From a virus, in UHGV virus genome UHGV-1366919: a stretch of 64,000 nt of DNA; one strand, given 5' to 3'. Positions 17,606 through 22,452 of the stretch are shown in pieces. Position numbers and translations under genes: made by a program. Below the pieces are notes generated by a model. The model searched no databases. It was not told the DNA's origin and was given only the letters and a program-made list of their open reading frames with translations. Numbering within the stretch: the first letter of the stretch is position 1; every line of letters begins with the position of its first letter.

Positions 17606-17707
17606 TCTGTTGGATGGTTAGTCAAGTATGTAGGTCCCATATTTTTGCCAAAGATAAATCTTTGTTACTGGAAACAACCACGTAGAGGTATATTACCGTA
17701 TGTTTCC

Positions 17708-17780
17708 TATTGCCATCGAGATTCGAACTCGAGATAGCCGGTAGAAAGCCGGCTGTGATAAACCACTTCACTATGGCAAC
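17708..17780 (-). tRNA. tRNA-Glu(TTC)
   Basis: Hand-folded cloverleaf: 7-bp acceptor stem (G1-U72), D-stem gtga/tcac, anticodon stem gccgg/ccggc with loop ctttcta, canonical T-arm tcgag-ttcgaat-ctcga. Confidence 0.7.
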
Positions 17781-18185
17781 ATATCAAGACTCAGCGGATT
17801 TGTTTTAAAAGAACAATGCTTAATGATTGCTGTTTGAGTCTTTCAAAGAATTTAAATCTTCTTATTAGAGAATTGTTGGAGTATTGGGCATTTACAATCC
17901 AATTTTTATAGCAACTGGCCTACCAGTCTCAGGATTTCTTACGAACAAGAAACTTACGCGATTCTCGGAGAGTTTTAAACTCATTCATCCTTTGCCGATT
18001 AAAATTGAGACGACGAAGACCCTCATCATACTGCTCCTCAAACGATTTTTCACTCTTAATTTCTTCCAGATTCTTAATCGTTTTTACGTCAAGCATCGTT
18101 CCAATTCGCATAATATTTCCTTTCGTATTTTCGTTATTACTTAACAACTTGTTACATTTTTATTATATTTTTTACCTTTATTTTT

Positions 18186-18192
18186 AAAGGTG
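18186..18192 (-). promoter_or_regulatory. conserved element CACCTTTAAAAATAAAGGTAAAAAATATAATAAAAATG in the tRNA intergenic region
   Basis: Very similar to the 5996 instance, including GGTAA and TATAAT. Confidence 0.4.
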
Positions 18193-18293
18193 ATTTGAAA
18201 TATTGGAGCTGACAAGTAAGATTTGCACTTACAACTTCCTACTGGAATGCAGGACGACTTACTGCTTAAATCGATTGTCGCTTTAAAAAAACT

Positions 18294-18380
18294 TGGTACT
18301 ACCGGCGGGACTTGCACCCGCACGCTCTTACAAGCAACAAATTTTAAGTTTGCAATGTCTTCTAGTTCCATCACGGTAGC
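18294..18380 (-). tRNA. tRNA-Leu(TAA), type II with long variable arm, CCA encoded
   Basis: Acceptor gctaccg/cggtagt, anticodon stem gcaaa/tttgt with loop cttaaaa, T-stem gcggg/cccgc (T-loop tgcaagt is atypical), terminal CCA. Confidence 0.55.
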
Positions 18381-18586
18381 TTATGCGCTAGACACATTAA
18401 TTATTAAGAATTACTCTTAATACCTGGAATCGAACCAAGAATATCCATTGTATAGGTTATTGCTGTATGTGTCTTACAATGACTAGACTCATTTTTTATT
18501 ATATACACCAATAATATTTTAATTTGCTGTACGAGTCTATAAAATCTTTATAACTAACTAAGCACCAAAGGTTTGACTCGAACAAG

Positions 18587-18621
18587 CAACTAACAACTAA
18601 CAACTAACGAGTAACGAGTTA
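18587..18621. repeat. heptamer tandem repeats (caactaa x3, cgagtaa x2)
   Basis: Direct reading of the sequence in the non-coding tRNA region. Confidence 0.7.
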
Positions 18622-18665
18622 ACAGCTTGCCCCTCTACTATTGAGGTACTTTGGTATTCAATTAA

Positions 18666-18717
18666 TTATCTGATTTGAGGAAATCTTTATCTTTATTAAT
18701 TTCCTCAAATCAGATAA
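18666..18717. repeat. 19-bp perfect inverted repeat hairpin (ttatctgatttgaggaaat / atttcctcaaatcagataa, 14-nt loop)
   Basis: Read directly. It is followed at 18803-18813 by a T11 run. Confidence 0.75.
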
Positions 18718-18834
18718 CTAATCAAAACTAGTTATTTGATTTATTACTTTGCATCAAAACAATTTTAATTCAATTATCCGTCCTTCACAGGATTGATTTT
18801 TTTTTTTGAATATTTCATTCGAAAAATTAGTTTC

Positions 18835-18892
18835 GCTCTTGGCTACTTATGCTCATCGCCGCGTAAAGGCTTTTTCGATGATGAACTGGTTG
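18835..18892. repeat. about 55-nt conserved element, copy A (about 80% identical to 21737-21795)
   Basis: Plus-strand tacttatgctcatcgccgcgtaaaggctttttcgatgatgaactgg aligns with the copy at 21737-21795, attacttatgttcattaccacgtaaaggtttctccattaatgaactcgg. Confidence 0.6.
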
Positions 18893-19014
18893 CAGCGGGC
18901 GGACATGCTCCGCTTAAGAGATGCTTATGAGACATCTGAGGCTACTAATACCTCTTTACTTTCCTGCTGCGATTTTCTGAGCAGTTTAAAATCTTGCTCA
19001 GGATTCTGAATTAT

Positions 19015-19134
19015 TTACTTACCTTTCTGAACCTTAATTACAGGAGGCTGATTAACAGTTTGTTGCTGTTGCTGAGAGCAAGAAGCTGTCAAACAAATTA
19101 CAGAAGCGGTAAGAAGAATTGCAATGTTTTTCAT
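19015..19134 (-). CDS. small lipoprotein (39 aa: MKNIAILLTASVICLTASCSQQQQQTVNQPPVIKVQKGK)
   Basis: Hand-translated. Signal peptide with lipobox-like LTASC. AGGTG/CACCT motif about 35 nt upstream. Confidence 0.45.
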   Translation of the reverse strand: MKNIAILLTASVICLTASCSQQQQQTVNQPPVIKVQKGK

Positions 19135-19177
19135 GATTTTATAATATTTTTTATCTTATTTTTTGTAGGTGCTCAAA

Positions 19178-19432
19178 TCAAATATATGAGTTTTGATATT
19201 TAATTGAATTGCGGAATTTTTTATCAGGATATTCTTTAATAAATCCTTCAGCAATTTTATCATCCCATATAGGTCTTTGACTAAATTTAGCACGAATATT
19301 GGGTTGATCCTTGGCCTTATATTCCCGATACCATTTTATATTGTTTCGAGTTTTATAAATCCAAAATGCTTTTCTGCTGTCAAGTTTATAACAAAACTTG
19401 TCCGGTATATTTTTTCTATATGATCTGCTCAT
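19178..19432 (-). CDS. small basic protein (84 aa)
   Basis: ORF. Confidence 0.4.
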   Translation of the reverse strand: MSRSYRKNIPDKFCYKLDSRKAFWIYKTRNNIKWYREYKAKDQPNIRAKFSQRPIWDDKIAEGFIKEYPDKKFRNSIKYQNSYI

Positions 19433-19450
19433 AACTTTCTAGGTACAAAC

Positions 19451-20996: not shown

Positions 20997-21300
20997 TGAT
21001 TGATGCTTCTTTATAAAAGTTAGAAAGGATAAGAGTTATAATGAAAGGTTCTCCTTTACTCAATTCAATGTCATATTCAATGCCATTATTATCTTCTTCC
21101 CAAATAATATGAAGCTCATCGTTAAACACAACTGTTTCAATATTTTTAATGAGCAGCATATTTTTTACCTTTTGAGTAAGGTCAAACATTGATCCGTCAA
21201 ATTCAATGATTTTTCCTCCCATAAGGGAATCTTTAATAATATCTTCATCCCCGTGAGATACATGAAGATAAGATGGAATTGAAACTGCAAAATTACTCAT
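20983..21300 (-). CDS. hypothetical protein (105 aa), first gene of the AAA+ operon
   Basis: ORF. AACACCTTTGAG...CATAAT element upstream. Confidence 0.45.
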   Translation of the reverse strand: MSNFAVSIPSYLHVSHGDEDIIKDSLMGGKIIEFDGSMFDLTQKVKNMLLIKNIETVVFNDELHIIWEEDNNGIEYDIELSKGEPFIITLILSNFYKEASINELV

Positions 21301-21330
21301 AAAAATATTATGAGATAAATCTTATAACTC

Positions 21331-21337
21331 AAAGGTG
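21331..21337 (-). promoter_or_regulatory. conserved element AACACCTTTGAG ... CATAAT 32 nt before the AAA+ operon
   Basis: Matches the 4891-4897 instance (AACACCTTTGAG). Confidence 0.4.
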
Positions 21338-21350
21338 TTTAAGAAATAAA

Positions 21351-21425
21351 TGGAAGAGTTGCTGGGGTACGATCCCAGAATAGGAGAGTCAAAGTCTCCG
21401 GTGTTGCCAATTACACTACAACTCT
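21351..21425 (-). tRNA. tRNA-Gln(TTG), CCA encoded
   Basis: Perfect 7-bp acceptor agagttg/caactct, D-stem gtgt/acac, anticodon stem ggaga/tctcc with loop ctttgac. T-loop atcgtac is non-canonical. Confidence 0.5.
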
Positions 21426-21431
21426 ATTTGT

Positions 21432-21506
21432 TGGAGGCTTCAATCGGTTATGCTCCGATGTTACCGGGTTACAAATCCGGGGTTTTACTGATTAAACTAT
21501 AAAGCC
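21432..21506 (-). tRNA. tRNA-Thr(TGT), CCA encoded
   Basis: Acceptor ggcttta/tgaagcc, D-stem gttt/aaac with 8-nt loop, anticodon loop tttgtaa, T-stem atcgg/ccgat. T-loop agcataa is non-canonical. 6 nt from tRNA-Gln. Confidence 0.5.
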
Positions 21507-21508
21507 TT

Positions 21509-21582
21509 TGGTACTTTGTATCGAAATCGAATCGATGACTTCTGAGTGGAAATCAGATGTTTTACCACTAAACTAACAAAGC
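21509..21582 (-). tRNA. tRNA-Gly(TCC), CCA encoded
   Basis: Acceptor gctttgt/acaaagt, D-stem gttt/aaac, perfect anticodon stem tctga/tcaga with loop tttccac, T-arm atcga-ttcgatt-tcgat. 2 nt from tRNA-Thr. Confidence 0.7.
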
Positions 21583-21700
21583 ATTAACAAGACACATTTT
21601 CTTTATACTCTACCAATTGAGCTAGCATCCTCTTCTCAAAGATGCCTAGGATTCGAACCCAGAACCGTTCATTTTTCATATGACTAAGATAATTGTTGTT
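21583..21700 (-). other. tRNA-like fragments: canonical D-arm (tagctcaattggtagagt) and T-arm (ctgggttcgaatcctag) in inverted order, joined by a gcatc/gatgc stem
   Basis: Could not be folded into a single cloverleaf by hand. May be a pseudo-tRNA, an unusual tRNA or an att-site remnant. Confidence 0.3.
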
Positions 21701-21736
21701 AATGTCTTTTTTATGAGAAGACTTAGAGATATTAGT

Positions 21737-21795
21737 TTCATCTTTCCTGATTACTTATGTTCATTACCACGTAAAGGTTTCTCCATTAATGAACT
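21737..21795. repeat. about 55-nt conserved element, copy B (partner of 18835-18892); overlaps the 3' acceptor of tRNA-Pro
   Basis: About 80% identity to copy A. In minus sense it forms the hairpin gttcatta...taatgaac. Confidence 0.6.
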
Positions 21796-21866
21796 CGGGT
21801 ACCAGAGGGTCGAACTCTGTTAATCATGCTCCCAAAGCATGCCCATAACCGTCCTGGCCATACCCG
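21795..21866 (-). tRNA. tRNA-Pro(TGG), CCA not encoded
   Basis: Acceptor cgggtat/gtacccg, anticodon stem catgc/gcatg with loop tttggga, T-arm cagag-ttcgacc-ctctg. The D-arm is short and irregular. Confidence 0.5.
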
Positions 21867-22185
21867 TTATACCGGTATTGTCGTCAACTTTCTCAGAAGT
21901 ACCGGACTCCTATAGCTTCAGCATACGATCAGCTAAACGATTATTTCTTAACCCATCGTTCTAACGGTAATCAGTTCCAGCTCGCTCTCTAACCGCTAAA
22001 CTGATAAGTCGCTAGTTAGGTAATTCTTTGTGACTAGCAAAGAAACACTATGTTCGATCTACATATTTACTCATCACTATCGAGTCAACGGACTAATAGG
22101 CTAAGAGTGGGATCTTCGTATTTTTAAAAATGTATTAATAATACGATCACTTTTAATAGTATGATCTCTATATACTTTTTCCTGC

Positions 22186-22212
22186 TTGAGTAAAATCTAA
22201 GATTTTACTCAA
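22186..22212. repeat. 12-bp perfect hairpin (ttgagtaaaatc taa gattttactcaa)
   Basis: Read directly; no adjacent T-tract. Confidence 0.6.
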
Positions 22213-22374
22213 ATAATATTCACTTGTTTGTGGATTTTTATTTACAATATATGTTCCTAATGGACAATTAGTAATAATATCTAATGATCCATTTTCTACT
22301 ACTCATAGATTATTATTATTTCGAATGAATTGAGACATTATGTTATTTTGTTTTTGTTTTTGTTTTTTAAAATT

Positions 22375-22452
22375 TGGTAAGCCTGGTCGGATTCGAACCG
22401 ACGATCTATCGATTATGAGTCGATTGCTTTAAAACCTCTAAGCTACAAGCCT
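22375..22452 (-). tRNA. tRNA-Met/Ile(CAT), CCA encoded
   Basis: Acceptor aggcttg/caggctt (two G-U pairs), D-stem gctt/aagc, anticodon stem atcga/tcgat with loop ctcataa, canonical T-arm gtcgg-ttcgaat-ccgac. Confidence 0.7.

What the first reader, a model, noticed from the sequence alone, without database searches (positions are those of the whole stretch)
17610..22452. Two tRNA clusters mixing intact tRNAs, tRNAs with non-canonical T-loops, and tRNA-like fragments
Hand folding gives Glu(TTC), Leu(TAA), Gln(TTG), Thr(TGT), Gly(TCC), Pro(TGG) and Met/Ile(CAT). Gln-Thr-Gly are separated by only 2-6 nt. Glu, Gly and Met have canonical TTCGAAT-type T-loops. Gln, Thr and Leu have odd T-loops (atcgtac, agcataa, tgcaagt). 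Further tRNA-like pieces occur at 18200-18291, 18400-18430 (T-arm cttggttcgattccagg without a matching acceptor), 21583-21700 (D-arm and T-arm in reversed order joined by a gcatc/gatgc stem) and 21867-22100. The set decodes codons expected to be frequent in an AT-rich phage (UUA, GAA, ACA, GGA, CCA, CAA).
Basis: seen in the sequence. Interest (0 to 1): 0.55.

Follow-up and report, generated by a model that had tools for sequence, protein, structure and literature searches.

The report
tRNA array, ribozymes and Y-like RNAs
The "broken tRNA pieces" in this phage tRNA cluster are organised small RNAs: three self-cleaving ribozymes that cut tRNA 3' ends, and four copies of a widespread, apparently undescribed phage RNA family that mimics tRNA and sits next to a gene for a Ro60-like RNA-binding protein.

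Summary
All features lie on the minus strand.

**tRNAs.** The odd T-loops are as described.

**Ribozymes.** Three HDV-like ("theta"-type) ribozymes start exactly at the 3' ends of tRNA-Glu, tRNA-Pro and an undetected tRNA-like cloverleaf with a CAU loop.

**"Fragments".** Those at 21583-21700 and 18400-18430, plus two unnoticed short units, share one frame. It is a closing helix, then an invariant ACAGCAA, then a variable payload, then the complementary strand.
- Unit A's payload has the YrlA Y-RNA layout: T-arm, capped acceptor hairpin, D-arm.
- The frame recurs in 41-49 of 80 phage loci that carry a DUF2828 gene. It is almost always on that gene's strand, mostly within 2 kb, with strong covariation.
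- It also occurs in cultured Listeria, Bacillus, Campylobacter, Mycobacterium, Aeromonas and E. coli phages.

**Partner protein.** The window's DUF2828 protein (11146-12630) models as a Ro60 fold (TROVE ring plus vWA domain). Binding is inferred, not shown.

**Other pieces.** 18208-18281 is a weak tRNA-like element. 21867-22100 is unsupported.

**Verdict.** The ribozymes are a known kind. The RNA frame is a new variant of Y RNAs.

The parts
22375..22452 (-). tRNA with CAU anticodon (Met or Ile2; not distinguished), CCA encoded
   Evidence: ARAGORN; Rfam tRNA 67.7 bits; sequence
21795..21866 (-). tRNA-Pro (UGG), no encoded CCA
   Evidence: ARAGORN. Rfam tRNA is below threshold: the near-identical L001 copy scores 25.8 bits against a cut-off of 29
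21724..21794 (-). HDV-like (theta-type) ribozyme rz3. G1 at 21794 lies directly after the tRNA-Pro discriminator base
   Evidence: Rfam HDV-F-prausnitzii 18.8 bits. Core CCTTTACGTGG. Helices by hand: P1 GUUCAUU/AAUGAAC, P2 UGGAGA/UCUCUA, P3 ACC/GGU. The L001 orthologue keeps P2 (G.U becomes A-U) and P4 (AUCC GGAA GGAU)
21587..21710 (-). Y-RNA-like unit A. Frame AAGACA..ACAaCAA ... UGUCUU. Payload is V-arm hairpin, T-arm, capped 7-bp acceptor hairpin, D-arm
   Evidence: Rfam YrlA 26 bits, below the cut-off of 69. My model R1 95.7 bits, but this copy was in the training set. MFE fold. The L001 copy has the canonical AGACACAAACAGCAA with compensatory changes in the T stem and acceptor hairpin
21509..21582 (-). 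tRNA-Gly (UCC), CCA encoded
   Evidence: 69 bits
21432..21506 (-). tRNA-Thr (UGU), T-loop AGCAUAA, CCA encoded
   Evidence: Rfam 49.7 bits; ARAGORN only at 80% threshold
21351..21425 (-). tRNA-Gln (UUG), T-loop AUCGUAC, CCA encoded
   Evidence: 53 bits
18887..18970 (-). Non-canonical tRNA-like cloverleaf. Anticodon-type loop CUCAUAA, 5-nt T-loop, 3' end AACCA. Not called by ARAGORN or Rfam
   Evidence: MFE four-way junction, z = -3.95, 0 of 200 shuffles fold as well. Ends exactly at G1 of rz2
18820..18886 (-). HDV-like (theta-type) ribozyme rz2
   Evidence: Rfam HDV-F-prausnitzii 21.6 bits. Core CCTTTACGCGG. Helices by hand: P1 GUUCAUC/GAUGAGC, P2 CGAAAAA/UUUUUCG (7 bp), P3 GCC/GGC. In L001 a P1 U.G pair becomes U-A
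18562..18655 (-). Asn-GUU-like tRNA with a 22-nt heptamer-repeat insertion in the variable region; no CCA
   Evidence: ARAGORN. Rfam 42.9 bits with the insertion. L001 has one more ACTCGTT repeat
18482..18541 (-). Y-RNA-like unit C (short): AGACUC GU ACAGCAA ... GAGUCU AG
   Evidence: regex scan; R1 38.3 bits, E 1e-4, not in training
18387..18477 (-). Y-RNA-like unit B. Frame AAGACAC AU ACAGCAA ... GUGUCU AG. Payload is a T-arm plus a capped hairpin, with no D-arm
   Evidence: R1 50 bits, E 1e-6, not in training; fold
18294..18380 (-). tRNA-Leu (UAA), class II, T-loop UGCAAGU, CCA encoded
   Evidence: Rfam 42.3 bits; ARAGORN at 80% threshold
18208..18281 (-). Weak tRNA-like element (T-loop UGCAAAU, non-7-nt anticodon loop); status uncertain
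   Evidence: ARAGORN at 80% threshold only. Cloverleaf MFE. No Rfam tRNA match up to E = 10
17784..17844 (-). Y-RNA-like unit D (short), directly 5' of tRNA-Glu
   Evidence: regex scan; R1 31 bits, E 2e-3
17707..17781 (-). tRNA-Glu (UUC), no encoded CCA. Position 17707 is shared with G1 of rz1; the tRNA ends at 17708
   Evidence: 58.1 bits; Rfam span 17708-17780
17635..17707 (-). HDV-like (theta-type) ribozyme rz1. G1 at 17707. The P2 3' strand is clipped by a rearrangement breakpoint at 17639
   Evidence: Rfam HDV-F-prausnitzii 33.2 bits, E 0.002. Core CCTCTACGTGG. L001 has an 8-bp P2 (GGUAAUAU/AUAUUAUC); the window has 4 bp
11146..12630 (-). DUF2828+DUF7788 protein, 494 aa. Ro60-like fold (alpha-solenoid ring plus vWA domain with a DxSxS motif). 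Proposed partner of units A-D
   Evidence: Pfam. AlphaFold model pLDDT 87.7. The top 9 PDB matches are all Ro60/TROVE, E 3e-8 to 5e-7. Invariant D302, S304, S306, T372, D404
9705..10718 (-). RNA ligase (PF09414 with an N-terminal PHA02142 OB domain), adjacent to the Ro60-like gene

Best explanation
The region is a minus-strand array of phage small-RNA genes with three kinds of element.

**(1) tRNA genes.**
- There are eight: CAU, Pro, Gly, Thr, Gln, Asn-like, Leu and Glu.
- Six of the eight carry a U34 anticodon that reads A-ending codons (CAU and the Asn-like GUU do not).

**(2) Three HDV-like "theta-type" self-cleaving ribozymes.**
- Each has its first nucleotide directly after the 3' end of tRNA-Glu, tRNA-Pro or a non-canonical CAU tRNA-like cloverleaf.
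- Self-cleavage would release the tRNA 3' end without a host 3' nuclease.
- Glu and Pro, the tRNAs followed by ribozymes, are the ones that lack an encoded CCA.

**(3) Four Y-RNA-like units (A-D) built on one frame.**
- The frame is a 6-8 bp closing helix, 1-3 nt, the invariant ACAGCAA, a variable payload, then the complementary strand followed by U/A-G.
- Unit A's payload is a tRNA mimic of the YrlA layout: V-arm, T-arm, acceptor stem closed by a loop, D-arm.
- Unit B keeps the T-arm and the capped hairpin. Units C and D carry only small hairpins.

**Inferred mechanism.**
- The helix plus ACAGCAA is the binding site for the phage Ro60-like DUF2828 protein, encoded on the same strand. The gene lies 5-9 kb away here and about 0.5 kb away in relative L001.
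- The payload, like the tRNA-like module of bacterial YrlA, recruits or decoys tRNA-recognising factors.
- Together they would form a phage RNA surveillance, repair or counter-defence particle.

**Shown versus inferred.**
- Shown: the sequences, folds, covariation, genomic linkage and protein fold.
- Inferred: transcription, self-cleavage, protein binding and biological role.
For: **tRNAs:**

**Ribozymes**
- The core CCTYTACGYGG occurs three times exactly, all on the minus strand. Allowing one mismatch on both strands gives five matches against 0.61 expected, and 0 of 100 shuffles reach five.
- Rfam HDV-F-prausnitzii matches begin at model position 1, exactly at the tRNA ends.
- P1, P2 and P3 are kept by different sequences in the three paralogues, and by compensatory changes in L001.
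- A fourth copy in L001 follows tRNA-Ile and scores 40.7 bits.
- This context matches the published theta ribozymes (PMC10879173). That paper reports a DRB0094-family RNA ligase in 54.5% of such phages and an encoded CCA in only 4.5% of the associated tRNAs. The window has an OB-plus-ligase gene.

**Y-like units**
- Strict motif scan of 80 DUF2828 loci: 101 units on the gene's strand, 3 on the other strand, 1 in shuffled DNA. 49 of 80 loci have at least one unit.
- Covariance model R1: 82 hits in 41 of 80 loci. 81 are on the gene's strand and 66 lie within 2 kb, where only 23% of the non-gene DNA lies.
- Covariation: 92.7% of cells paired against 66.5% in shuffles. Score 0.449 against 0.136, with 0 of 500 shuffles reaching it. 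Slid controls give 0.03-0.07.
- RNAalifold finds compensatory changes in the closing, T, acceptor and D helices.
- Across the whole 64-kb window, R1 with filters off gives exactly four significant hits, units A-D.
- Reverse test: 19 of 46 motif-found complete units have DUF2828 in the few kb fetched, against 2 of 74 incomplete motif matches.
- The frame is present next to DUF2828 genes in cultured phages A511, CPX, Thrax1, Ah1, LeBron, SUSP1 and LMP33. The stems are unrelated in sequence but ACAGCAA is constant.
- The Rfam YrlA model hits family members below its cut-off, at 26-50 bits.
- T-loop G53, U54, U55, C56 and A58 are invariant across 28 copies.

**Protein:**
- Related genes are annotated "Ro-like RNA binding protein" in mycobacteriophages.
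- A structurally Ro60-like protein, gp130 of phage Bas63, lies upstream of tRNA genes and counters the Ppl defence system (PMC11482910).
Against: - No expression, cleavage or binding data exist for this sequence.
- All three ribozymes score below Rfam's curated cut-off of 44 bits. In this window rz1 has lost half of P2.
- Unit A's 5' motif is degenerate here (ACAaCAA, with one base missing from the helix).
- The window's DUF2828 gene is 5-9 kb from the units.
- About half of the DUF2828 loci show no unit in the 10-kb flanks.
- 27 of 46 motif-found units had no DUF2828 gene in the short stretch fetched.
- The bacterial YrlA motif GNCGAAN0-1G is absent, and Pfam's TROVE model does not match the protein.
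- The alignment used for pair counts was fitted to the model, which inflates the paired fraction.
Confidence: 0.72

Rival explanations
1. The tRNA-like pieces are decaying pseudogenes and recombination debris from tRNA gene turnover in a phage tRNA cluster, with no function of their own. This is essentially the first reader's view.
For: - Phage tRNA clusters do vary: L001 swaps the Met region for Lys and Ile.
- The Asn-like gene carries a variable heptamer repeat.
- 18208-18281 is a poor tRNA.
- Unit A's 5' motif is degraded in this window.
Against: - The same frame and the same order of arms recur in dozens of unrelated phages with compensatory base changes.
- There is a strict strand bias of 81 to 1 and proximity to one gene family.
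- The acceptor stems are closed by stable tetraloops such as UUCG and GUAA.
- Debris would not covary.
Confidence: 0.08
2. Unit A and its relatives are circularly permuted tRNA genes. The precursor would be circularised, with the phage RNA ligases as candidates, and then opened at the acceptor loop to give a working tRNA, as in the red alga Cyanidioschyzon merolae.
For: - The T-arm, acceptor strands and D-arm are in permuted order.
- A leader-trailer helix flanks the unit.
- Two RNA ligases and a phosphoesterase are encoded nearby.
- Many copies have a 7-nt-loop hairpin 5' of the T-arm.
Against: - The break point is not in a loop of a complete cloverleaf. The frame helix with ACAGCAA occupies the place of the anticodon loop, so no anticodon would be restored.
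- The acceptor loops are often 4-nt tetraloops with no discriminator or CCA context.
- Family members with only a T-arm or only small hairpins share the same frame.
- No bulge-helix-bulge motif or splicing endonuclease is evident.
Confidence: 0.05
3. The frame (helix plus ACAGCAA) is an RNA-processing or punctuation signal for maturing the polycistronic tRNA transcript, for example a nuclease entry site. It would not be a binding site for the Ro60-like protein, and the link to DUF2828 would be indirect because both sit in tRNA regions.
For: - Units sit between tRNAs in this window and in SUSP1, Thrax1 and LMP33.
- Some payloads are whole tRNA-like bodies in normal order.
- DUF2828 genes usually adjoin tRNA arrays.
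Against: - In LeBron, three units directly follow the DUF2828 gene, with no tRNA gene in the 9.4 kb shown.
- In A511 and CPX, the units abut the DUF2828 start codon rather than the tRNAs.
- Most tRNAs in these arrays have no flanking frame.
- The tRNA mimic with a capped acceptor matches the known Y-RNA design.
Confidence: 0.15

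Closest known systems
YrlA-type bacterial and phage Y RNAs (Rfam RF02553; Chen et al. 2014, PMC4201824) bound by Ro60/Rsr
   Same: - About 100-130 nt with a closing stem carrying a conserved 5'-side motif.
- The effector module mimics tRNA, with V-arm, T-arm, loop-capped acceptor stem and D-arm in that order.
- Encoded on the same strand within a few kb of a Ro60-fold gene, often in several tandem copies, some lacking the tRNA-like module (as YrlB does).
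- The Rfam YrlA model detects members at 26-50 bits.
   Different: - All copies score below the curated cut-off of 69 bits.
- The conserved motif is ACAGCAA after a free-sequence helix, not GNCGAAN0-1G.
- The partner protein is Pfam DUF2828+DUF7788. It is Ro60-like only at fold level, and Pfam TROVE is not matched.
- Payloads are more varied: permuted and normal-order tRNA mimics, T-arm only, or plain hairpins.
- The units are interleaved with real tRNA genes.
Theta ribozymes: minimal HDV-like ribozymes 3' of phage tRNAs (Kienbeck et al. 2024, PMC10879173)
   Same: - Nested P1, P2, P3 and P4 helices, with a C in the P4-to-P2 junction.
- The cleavage site lies within 1 nt of a tRNA 3' end.
- Two of the three associated RNAs (tRNA-Glu, tRNA-Pro) lack an encoded CCA; the CAU cloverleaf before rz2 ends in CCA.
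- The phage carries an OB-plus-adenylyltransferase RNA ligase.
   Different: - The associated tRNAs here are Glu, Pro and a non-canonical CAU cloverleaf. No suppressor tRNA is present and there is no sign of stop-codon recoding in this window.
- I could not run the authors' RNArobo descriptor.
- rz1 has a truncated P2 in this genome.
Thermus phage phiLo Ro60 with Yrl1 and Yrl2 (PMC12135203)
   Same: A phage-encoded Ro60-fold protein with Y-like RNAs encoded next to the gene. The crystal structure 9KOP is among the top fold matches.
   Different: - phiLo Ro60 is a recognisable TROVE protein.
- Its Yrls carry the CGAA motif in a stem-bulge-stem, and that paper reports no tRNA-like module or ACAGCAA motif.
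Circularly permuted tRNA genes (Cyanidioschyzon merolae and some other algae and archaea; from my own knowledge)
   Same: The 3' half (T-arm, acceptor 3' strand) precedes the 5' half (acceptor 5' strand, D-arm), with a leader-trailer helix.
   Different: - No recoverable anticodon loop.
- The acceptor is closed by tetraloops.
- No bulge-helix-bulge motif.
- Bacterial-virus context.
- The same frame also carries payloads that are not tRNA-like.

Membership tests
tRNA (Rfam RF00005 / ARAGORN) | Cloverleaf scoring above the curated threshold, with a 7-nt anticodon loop | tested here: met
   Met, Gly, Glu, Gln, Thr, Asn-like and Leu score 42-69 bits against a cut-off of 29. Pro is called by ARAGORN only. 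18208-18281 and 18887-18970 do NOT meet it.
HDV-like / theta ribozymes | Rfam HDV-F-prausnitzii covariance model at its curated cut-off (44 bits) | tested here: not met
   33.2, 21.6 and 18.8 bits. The L001 fourth copy scores 40.7 bits. All are below the cut-off, as may be expected for minimal variants with a short P4.
HDV-like / theta ribozymes | Nested double-pseudoknot helices P1, P2, P3 and P4, with a C at the start of the P4-to-P2 junction | tested here: met
   Hand-assigned. P1 is 7 bp, P3 is 3 bp and P2 is 6-8 bp (4 bp in window rz1). The junction reads C-UAA or C-AAA. Pairs are kept by different sequences in the paralogues and by compensatory changes in L001.
HDV-like / theta ribozymes | Cleavage site within +/-5 nt of a tRNA 3' end (the published definition of tRNA-associated theta ribozymes) | tested here: met
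   G1 at 17707 and 21794 lies directly after the discriminator base of Glu and Pro. G1 at 18886 follows the ...AACCA end of a tRNA-like cloverleaf.
HDV-like / theta ribozymes | Match to the authors' RNArobo descriptor; self-scission in vitro | not testable with these tools
   The descriptor is in a supplementary figure that is not held. No wet-lab assay is possible.
YrlA Y RNA (Rfam RF02553) | Covariance model at its curated cut-off (69 bits) | tested here: not met
   Window unit A scores 26 bits. Relatives score 50.3, 39.8, 36.9 and 32.3 bits.
YrlA Y RNA | tRNA-like module: T-arm, capped acceptor stem and D-arm in that order, with conserved T-loop and D-loop elbow nucleotides | tested here: met
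   G53, U54, U55, C56 and A58 are invariant in 28 copies. Unit B lacks the D-arm. Units C and D lack the module, as YrlB does.
YrlA Y RNA | 5' motif GNCGAAN0-1G (proposed Ro60 contact; PMC4201824) | tested here: not met
   The conserved motif is ACAGCAA instead.
YrlA Y RNA | Encoded within about 4 kb of, and on the same strand as, a Ro60 orthologue | tested here: inconclusive
   Same strand: yes. Distance is 5.2-9 kb here because of a 4.6-kb insertion; it is about 0.5 kb in L001. Across the family, 66 of 82 hits lie within 2 kb. The partner is Ro60-like by fold only.
YrlA Y RNA | Physical binding to Ro60 (the definition of a Y RNA) | not testable with these tools
   Needs immunoprecipitation or a gel-shift assay.
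Ro60 / TROVE proteins (for ORF 11146-12630) | Pfam TROVE domain at sequence level | tested here: not met
   Only DUF2828 and DUF7788 match. phmmer against PDB sequences finds no Ro60.
Ro60 / TROVE proteins (for ORF 11146-12630) | Alpha-solenoid ring plus C-terminal vWA domain with a MIDAS motif | tested here: met
   AlphaFold pLDDT 87.7. The nine best PDB matches are all Ro60/TROVE over the full length, TM 0.47-0.57. D302-x-S304-x-S306, T372 and D404 are invariant.
Circularly permuted tRNA genes | The two halves reconstitute a complete cloverleaf with an anticodon loop after circularisation | tested here: not met
   The frame helix and ACAGCAA replace the anticodon loop. Acceptor stems are closed by short loops.

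The most novel reading that the evidence does not exclude
The helix-ACAGCAA frame defines a large, previously undescribed family of phage Y RNAs.
- They would be the cognate partners of the DUF2828 Ro60-like proteins.
- DUF2828 genes are found in at least 542 IMG/VR contigs and 710 GenBank phage records. These include Felixounavirus, Herelleviridae, cluster L mycobacteriophages and Campylobacter phages.
- The payloads are modular tRNA mimics, in permuted or normal order.
- The resulting particles would act in RNA repair or as a counter-defence, as reported for the Ro60-like gp130 of phage Bas63 against the Ppl system.
- Many "gaps", "pseudo-tRNAs" and small hypothetical ORFs in annotated phage tRNA arrays would then be these RNAs.
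Probability: 0.5. Interest if true: 0.8.

Novelty: new variant of a known kind. Interest (0 to 1): 0.66.

Why it matters
Ro60 and its Y RNAs are a conserved but poorly understood RNA-surveillance system. In phages only a few TROVE-type examples have been studied.

- **A testable RNA partner.** A conserved and easily searched RNA signature sits beside a much larger Ro60-like family (DUF2828), including in well-studied E. coli, Listeria, Bacillus and Mycobacterium phages. This gives that protein a concrete RNA partner to test.
- **Annotation.** It explains unannotated gaps and spurious small ORFs inside phage tRNA arrays.
- **Counter-defence.** It links to a reported counter-defence phenotype, Bas63 gp130 against the Ppl system.
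- **Ribozymes.** The window adds tRNA-Glu, tRNA-Pro and a non-canonical CAU tRNA-like RNA to the contexts in which theta-type ribozymes appear to make tRNA 3' ends. It also places both RNA devices in one locus with two RNA ligases.

Tried and rejected
- **Close relatives in GenBank phages.** None found. Only tRNA-Met and an HNH gene match.
- **Protein sequence search of PDB.** phmmer with the DUF2828 protein gave no Ro60 hit. Only the fold search showed the relationship.
- **My first guess at the protein-binding motif.** I thought UAGUCAU in units A and B was the site. I rejected it: it is one strand of the V-arm hairpin in unit A.
- **My first reading of the hairpin 5' of the T-arm.** I read it as an anticodon arm. 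I revised this to a variable arm once the inner helix (UCUU/AAGA) appeared in the fold.
- **ARAGORN intron mode.** It adds nothing credible.
- **ARAGORN "tRNA-Asp" at 51024-51111.** It lies inside an ORF and has no Rfam support. I treat it as a false positive.
- **Region 21867-22375.** No Rfam family, no significant fold, no homologue in 2.5 Mb of fetched loci or in GenBank phages. It remains unexplained.
- **Literature.** DUF2828 with TROVE, YrlA with phage, Ro60 with phage and tRNA, and Ro-like RNA-binding protein found no description of the ACAGCAA RNAs. Two Y-RNA reviews and the 2014 supplement were not held, so prior description cannot be excluded.
- **Suppressor tRNAs and recoding.** None seen. 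ORFs are long under the standard code, and stop codons are TAA 39, TGA 12, TAG 4.

Full report
**Observation**

Every feature in 17610-22452 lies on the minus strand.
- ARAGORN calls Glu-ttc, an Asn-gtt-like gene of 94 nt, Gln-ttg, Gly-tcc, Pro-tgg and Met-cat.
- Rfam's tRNA model adds Thr-tgt (49.7 bits) and Leu-taa (42.3 bits). It confirms the others except Pro.
- Read on the minus strand, Met, Gly, Thr, Gln and Leu carry an encoded CCA. Glu and Pro do not.
- The window is 32% G+C. GAA, CAA and GGA are the commonest synonymous codons. TTA, ACA and CCA are only second. The codon argument is therefore half right.

**Ribozymes**

A permissive Rfam scan gave matches to the Faecalibacterium HDV-like ribozyme. 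They start at model position 1, directly after tRNA-Glu (17635-17707, 33.2 bits) and after tRNA-Pro (21734-21794, 18.8 bits). A third lies at 18831-18886 (21.6 bits).
- The shared core CCTYTACGYGG occurs exactly three times in the 64 kb, all on the minus strand. The one-mismatch search on both strands gave five matches against 0.61 expected, and no shuffle reached five.
- Written out, each copy forms P1 (7 bp), P3 (3 bp) and P2 (6-8 bp), plus a short P4 followed by C-UAA or C-AAA.
- The three paralogues use different sequences for these helices.
- The 98%-identical relative L001 carries compensatory changes: a P1 U.G pair becomes U-A in rz2, and a P2 G.U pair becomes A-U in rz3. In L001, rz3's P4 becomes AUCC-GGAA-GGAU.
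- L001 has a fourth copy after tRNA-Ile (40.7 bits).

This is the context published for theta ribozymes (PMC10879173).
- That paper reports an encoded CCA in only 4.5% of the associated tRNAs and a DRB0094-type RNA ligase in 54.5% of carrier phages.
- The window has such an OB-plus-ligase gene at 9705-10718.
- All copies are below Rfam's curated score, and I could not run the authors' descriptor. Membership therefore rests on anatomy and context.
- In this window the 3' strand of rz1's P2 is cut by a rearrangement breakpoint at 17639. L001 has 8 bp there; the window has 4 bp.

The RNA upstream of rz2 (18887-18970) is not called by any tRNA finder.
- It folds into a four-way junction with a CUCAUAA loop and a 3' AACCA end.
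- The fold z-score is -3.95, and 0 of 200 shuffles fold as well.

**The "reversed" piece at 21583-21700**
- Rfam's YrlA (Y RNA-like) model aligns its T-arm, capped hairpin and D-arm. The score is 26 bits against a cut-off of 69.
- The order T-arm, acceptor hairpin, D-arm is the defining layout of YrlA tRNA mimics (PMC4201824).
- This prompted a search for a Ro60 gene. ORF 11146-12630 on the same strand is Pfam DUF2828+DUF7788.
- Its AlphaFold model has pLDDT 87.7. The nine best PDB matches are all Ro60/TROVE structures over the full length, with E 3e-8 to 5e-7 and TM 0.47-0.57. Isolated vWA domains follow.
- The vWA MIDAS residues are invariant in the family.
- At sequence level the protein is not a TROVE protein.
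- GenBank mycobacteriophage homologues are annotated "Ro-like RNA binding protein".

**A family emerges**

I fetched 80 IMG/VR loci that encode DUF2828 homologues. I scanned them for a T-arm followed by a short hairpin and then a D-arm. About 15 copies appeared close to the gene.
- All shared a 5' motif AAGACAC-NN-ACAGCAA and a 3' motif GUGUCUUG or GUGUCUAG.
- The helix covaries, for example GACCC/GGGUC and AGAUGC/GCAUCU.
- A strict scan for helix, 1-3 nt, ACAGCNA and a downstream exact complement found 101 units on the DUF2828 strand. It found 3 on the other strand and 1 in shuffled DNA. 49 of 80 loci had at least one unit.
- Most units are 50-80 nt with only small hairpins as payload.

Other payloads also occur:
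- permuted tRNA mimics;
- normal-order tRNA-like bodies with anticodon loops that are not 7 nt long;
- a T-arm alone.

**Covariance model**

I built model R1 from 28 permuted-type copies.
- It found 82 hits at E <= 0.01 in 41 of the 80 loci.
- 81 hits are on the gene's strand. 44 lie within 500 nt and 66 within 2 kb, although only 23% of the non-gene DNA is that close.
- Pair counts on the resulting alignment give 92.7% paired against 66.5% in shuffles.
- The covariation score is 0.449 against 0.136, with 0 of 500 shuffles reaching it. Slid controls give 0.03-0.07. All five helices show double changes.
- That alignment is fitted to the model, so the paired fraction leans high. The RNAalifold result on plain MAFFT alignments agrees.

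**Reverse test**

I started from the RNA motif AAGACACNNACAGCAA in IMG/VR.
- 46 of 120 matches have the downstream complement. About 7 would be expected by chance (my own estimate: a 6-mer in a ~255-nt search span).
- 19 of those 46 have a DUF2828 gene on the same strand in the few kb fetched.
- Only 2 of the 74 matches without the complement do.

**In the window**

R1 with filters off over all 64 kb gives exactly four significant hits, all on the minus strand inside the finding.
- A: 21587-21710.
- B: 18387-18477, E 1e-6, not in training.
- C: 18482-18541, E 1e-4.
- D: 17784-17844, E 2e-3.

The next hit is the expected Gly/Thr tRNA-dimer artefact.
It has the canonical frame, a T-arm and a capped hairpin, but no D-arm.
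- Unit A's MFE fold shows the frame helix, an inner helix, a V-arm hairpin, a T-arm, a 7-bp capped acceptor and a D-arm.
- Unit A's 5' motif is degraded here (AAGACAuUAACAaCAA). It is canonical in L001, which also has compensatory changes in the T stem and acceptor hairpin.
- In L001 the array lies about 0.5 kb from the DUF2828 gene. In the window a 4.6-kb segment with an IS1595 transposase separates them.

**Cultured phages**

The same frame flanks DUF2828 genes in the following phages.

| Phage | Units found |
|---|---|
| Mycobacterium phage LeBron | Three tandem units directly after gp53; Rfam YrlA 39.8 bits |
| E. coli phage SUSP1 | Four units |
| Felixounavirus LMP33 | One hit of 73.7 bits, overlapping two small "hypothetical" ORFs |
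| Listeria phage A511 | Three units abutting the gene start |
| Campylobacter phage CPX | Two units |
| Bacillus phage Thrax1 | Two full units in gaps of the tRNA array, plus three or four short units between the tRNA array and the gene |
| Aeromonas phage Ah1 | Three units |

- Helix sequences are unrelated between these phages (GGAAUC, GAGAGC, GGUAC, GACCG, GGACUC, GAGCGC), while ACAGCAA is constant.
- A preprint on phage Bas63 notes that its structurally Ro60-like gp130 lies upstream of tRNA genes and counters the Ppl defence. Its authors speculate that some "tRNAs" are Y RNAs (PMC11482910).
- I found no paper describing these RNAs in the held library. Key reviews and the 2014 supplement were not available.

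**Interpretation**

The locus is a phage small-RNA array that combines three elements:
- tRNAs;
- ribozymes that make tRNA 3' ends;
- Y-RNA-like units that most likely bind the Ro60-like DUF2828 protein.

It sits in a neighbourhood rich in RNA-end chemistry: two RNA ligases, a phosphoesterase, an RlaP nucleotidyltransferase and a NADAR protein. Protein binding, cleavage and biological role are inferences.

The units work like YrlA but fail two YrlA membership tests, the curated score and the GNCGAA motif. The partner is Ro60-like only by fold. I therefore file them as a new variant of the Y-RNA kind, not as YrlA.

**Unresolved**
- 18208-18281 is a weak tRNA-like element, seen only by ARAGORN at 80% threshold.
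- The Asn-like gene has a heptamer-repeat variable region that differs in copy number from L001. Its function is doubtful.
- 21867-22375 has no detectable family, fold signal or homologue.

Noticed in passing
window 13040-17639: A 4.6-kb segment is absent from the 98%-identical relative L001. It carries an IS1595-family transposase (15169-16200) and plus-strand ORFs. Its right edge at 17639 clips the P2 helix of ribozyme rz1 and separates the RNA array from the Ro60-like gene.
   Followed up: partly
L001 10001-11242 (corresponds to window 10353-12038 deleted): In relative L001 a 1.7-kb deletion fuses the N-terminal part of the DUF2828 gene to the RNA ligase gene (413-aa product with DUF2828 and RNA_ligase domains). 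That strain has probably lost an intact Ro60-like protein while keeping the RNA units.
   Followed up: partly
window 18562-18655 and L001 8576-8675: The variable region of the Asn-GUU-like tRNA is made of heptamer repeats, (ACTCGTT)n(AGTTGTT)3. The window has two ACTCGTT copies and L001 has three.
   Followed up: partly
window 18659-18724: A long near-perfect inverted repeat of about 25 bp per arm lies directly 5' of the Asn-like tRNA on the minus strand. It gives spurious microRNA-family matches in Rfam. Its function is unknown.
   Followed up: no
window 27334-28434 and 30559-31896: Two TnpB / IS605 OrfB-like genes (Cas12f-like TNB domain, RuvC-like domain) lie inside the phage genome.
   Followed up: no
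window 51024-51111: ARAGORN calls an 88-nt tRNA-Asp(gtc) here. It lies inside ORF 50817-51281 and has no Rfam tRNA match, so it is probably a false positive.
   Followed up: partly
window 6889-9199, 23766-24611: An NAD-related gene set: a nicotinamide phosphoribosyltransferase-like gene, a NUDIX gene and a NADAR-domain gene. This is the kind of set seen in phage NAD-salvage and counter-defence modules.
   Followed up: no
window 44377-45981; 54783-55829; 25500-26612; 28566-29312: A phage-encoded Cpn60 chaperonin, an RlaP-family nucleotidyltransferase (RNA repair pathway), a T4 Rnl1-like RNA ligase and a calcineurin-like phosphoesterase. Together they suggest a large phage with an extensive RNA-repair toolkit.
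   Followed up: no
window 47644-47711 (-): A sub-threshold Rfam match to Streptococcus sRNA SpR14 (39.1 bits, cut-off 50) in an intergenic gap. Not examined.
   Followed up: no
L208 (Escherichia phage LMP33) 5966-6096; L203 (SUSP1) 6915-6971: In GenBank records, Y-like units overlap small annotated "hypothetical protein" ORFs inside tRNA arrays. These ORFs are likely mis-annotations.
   Followed up: partly
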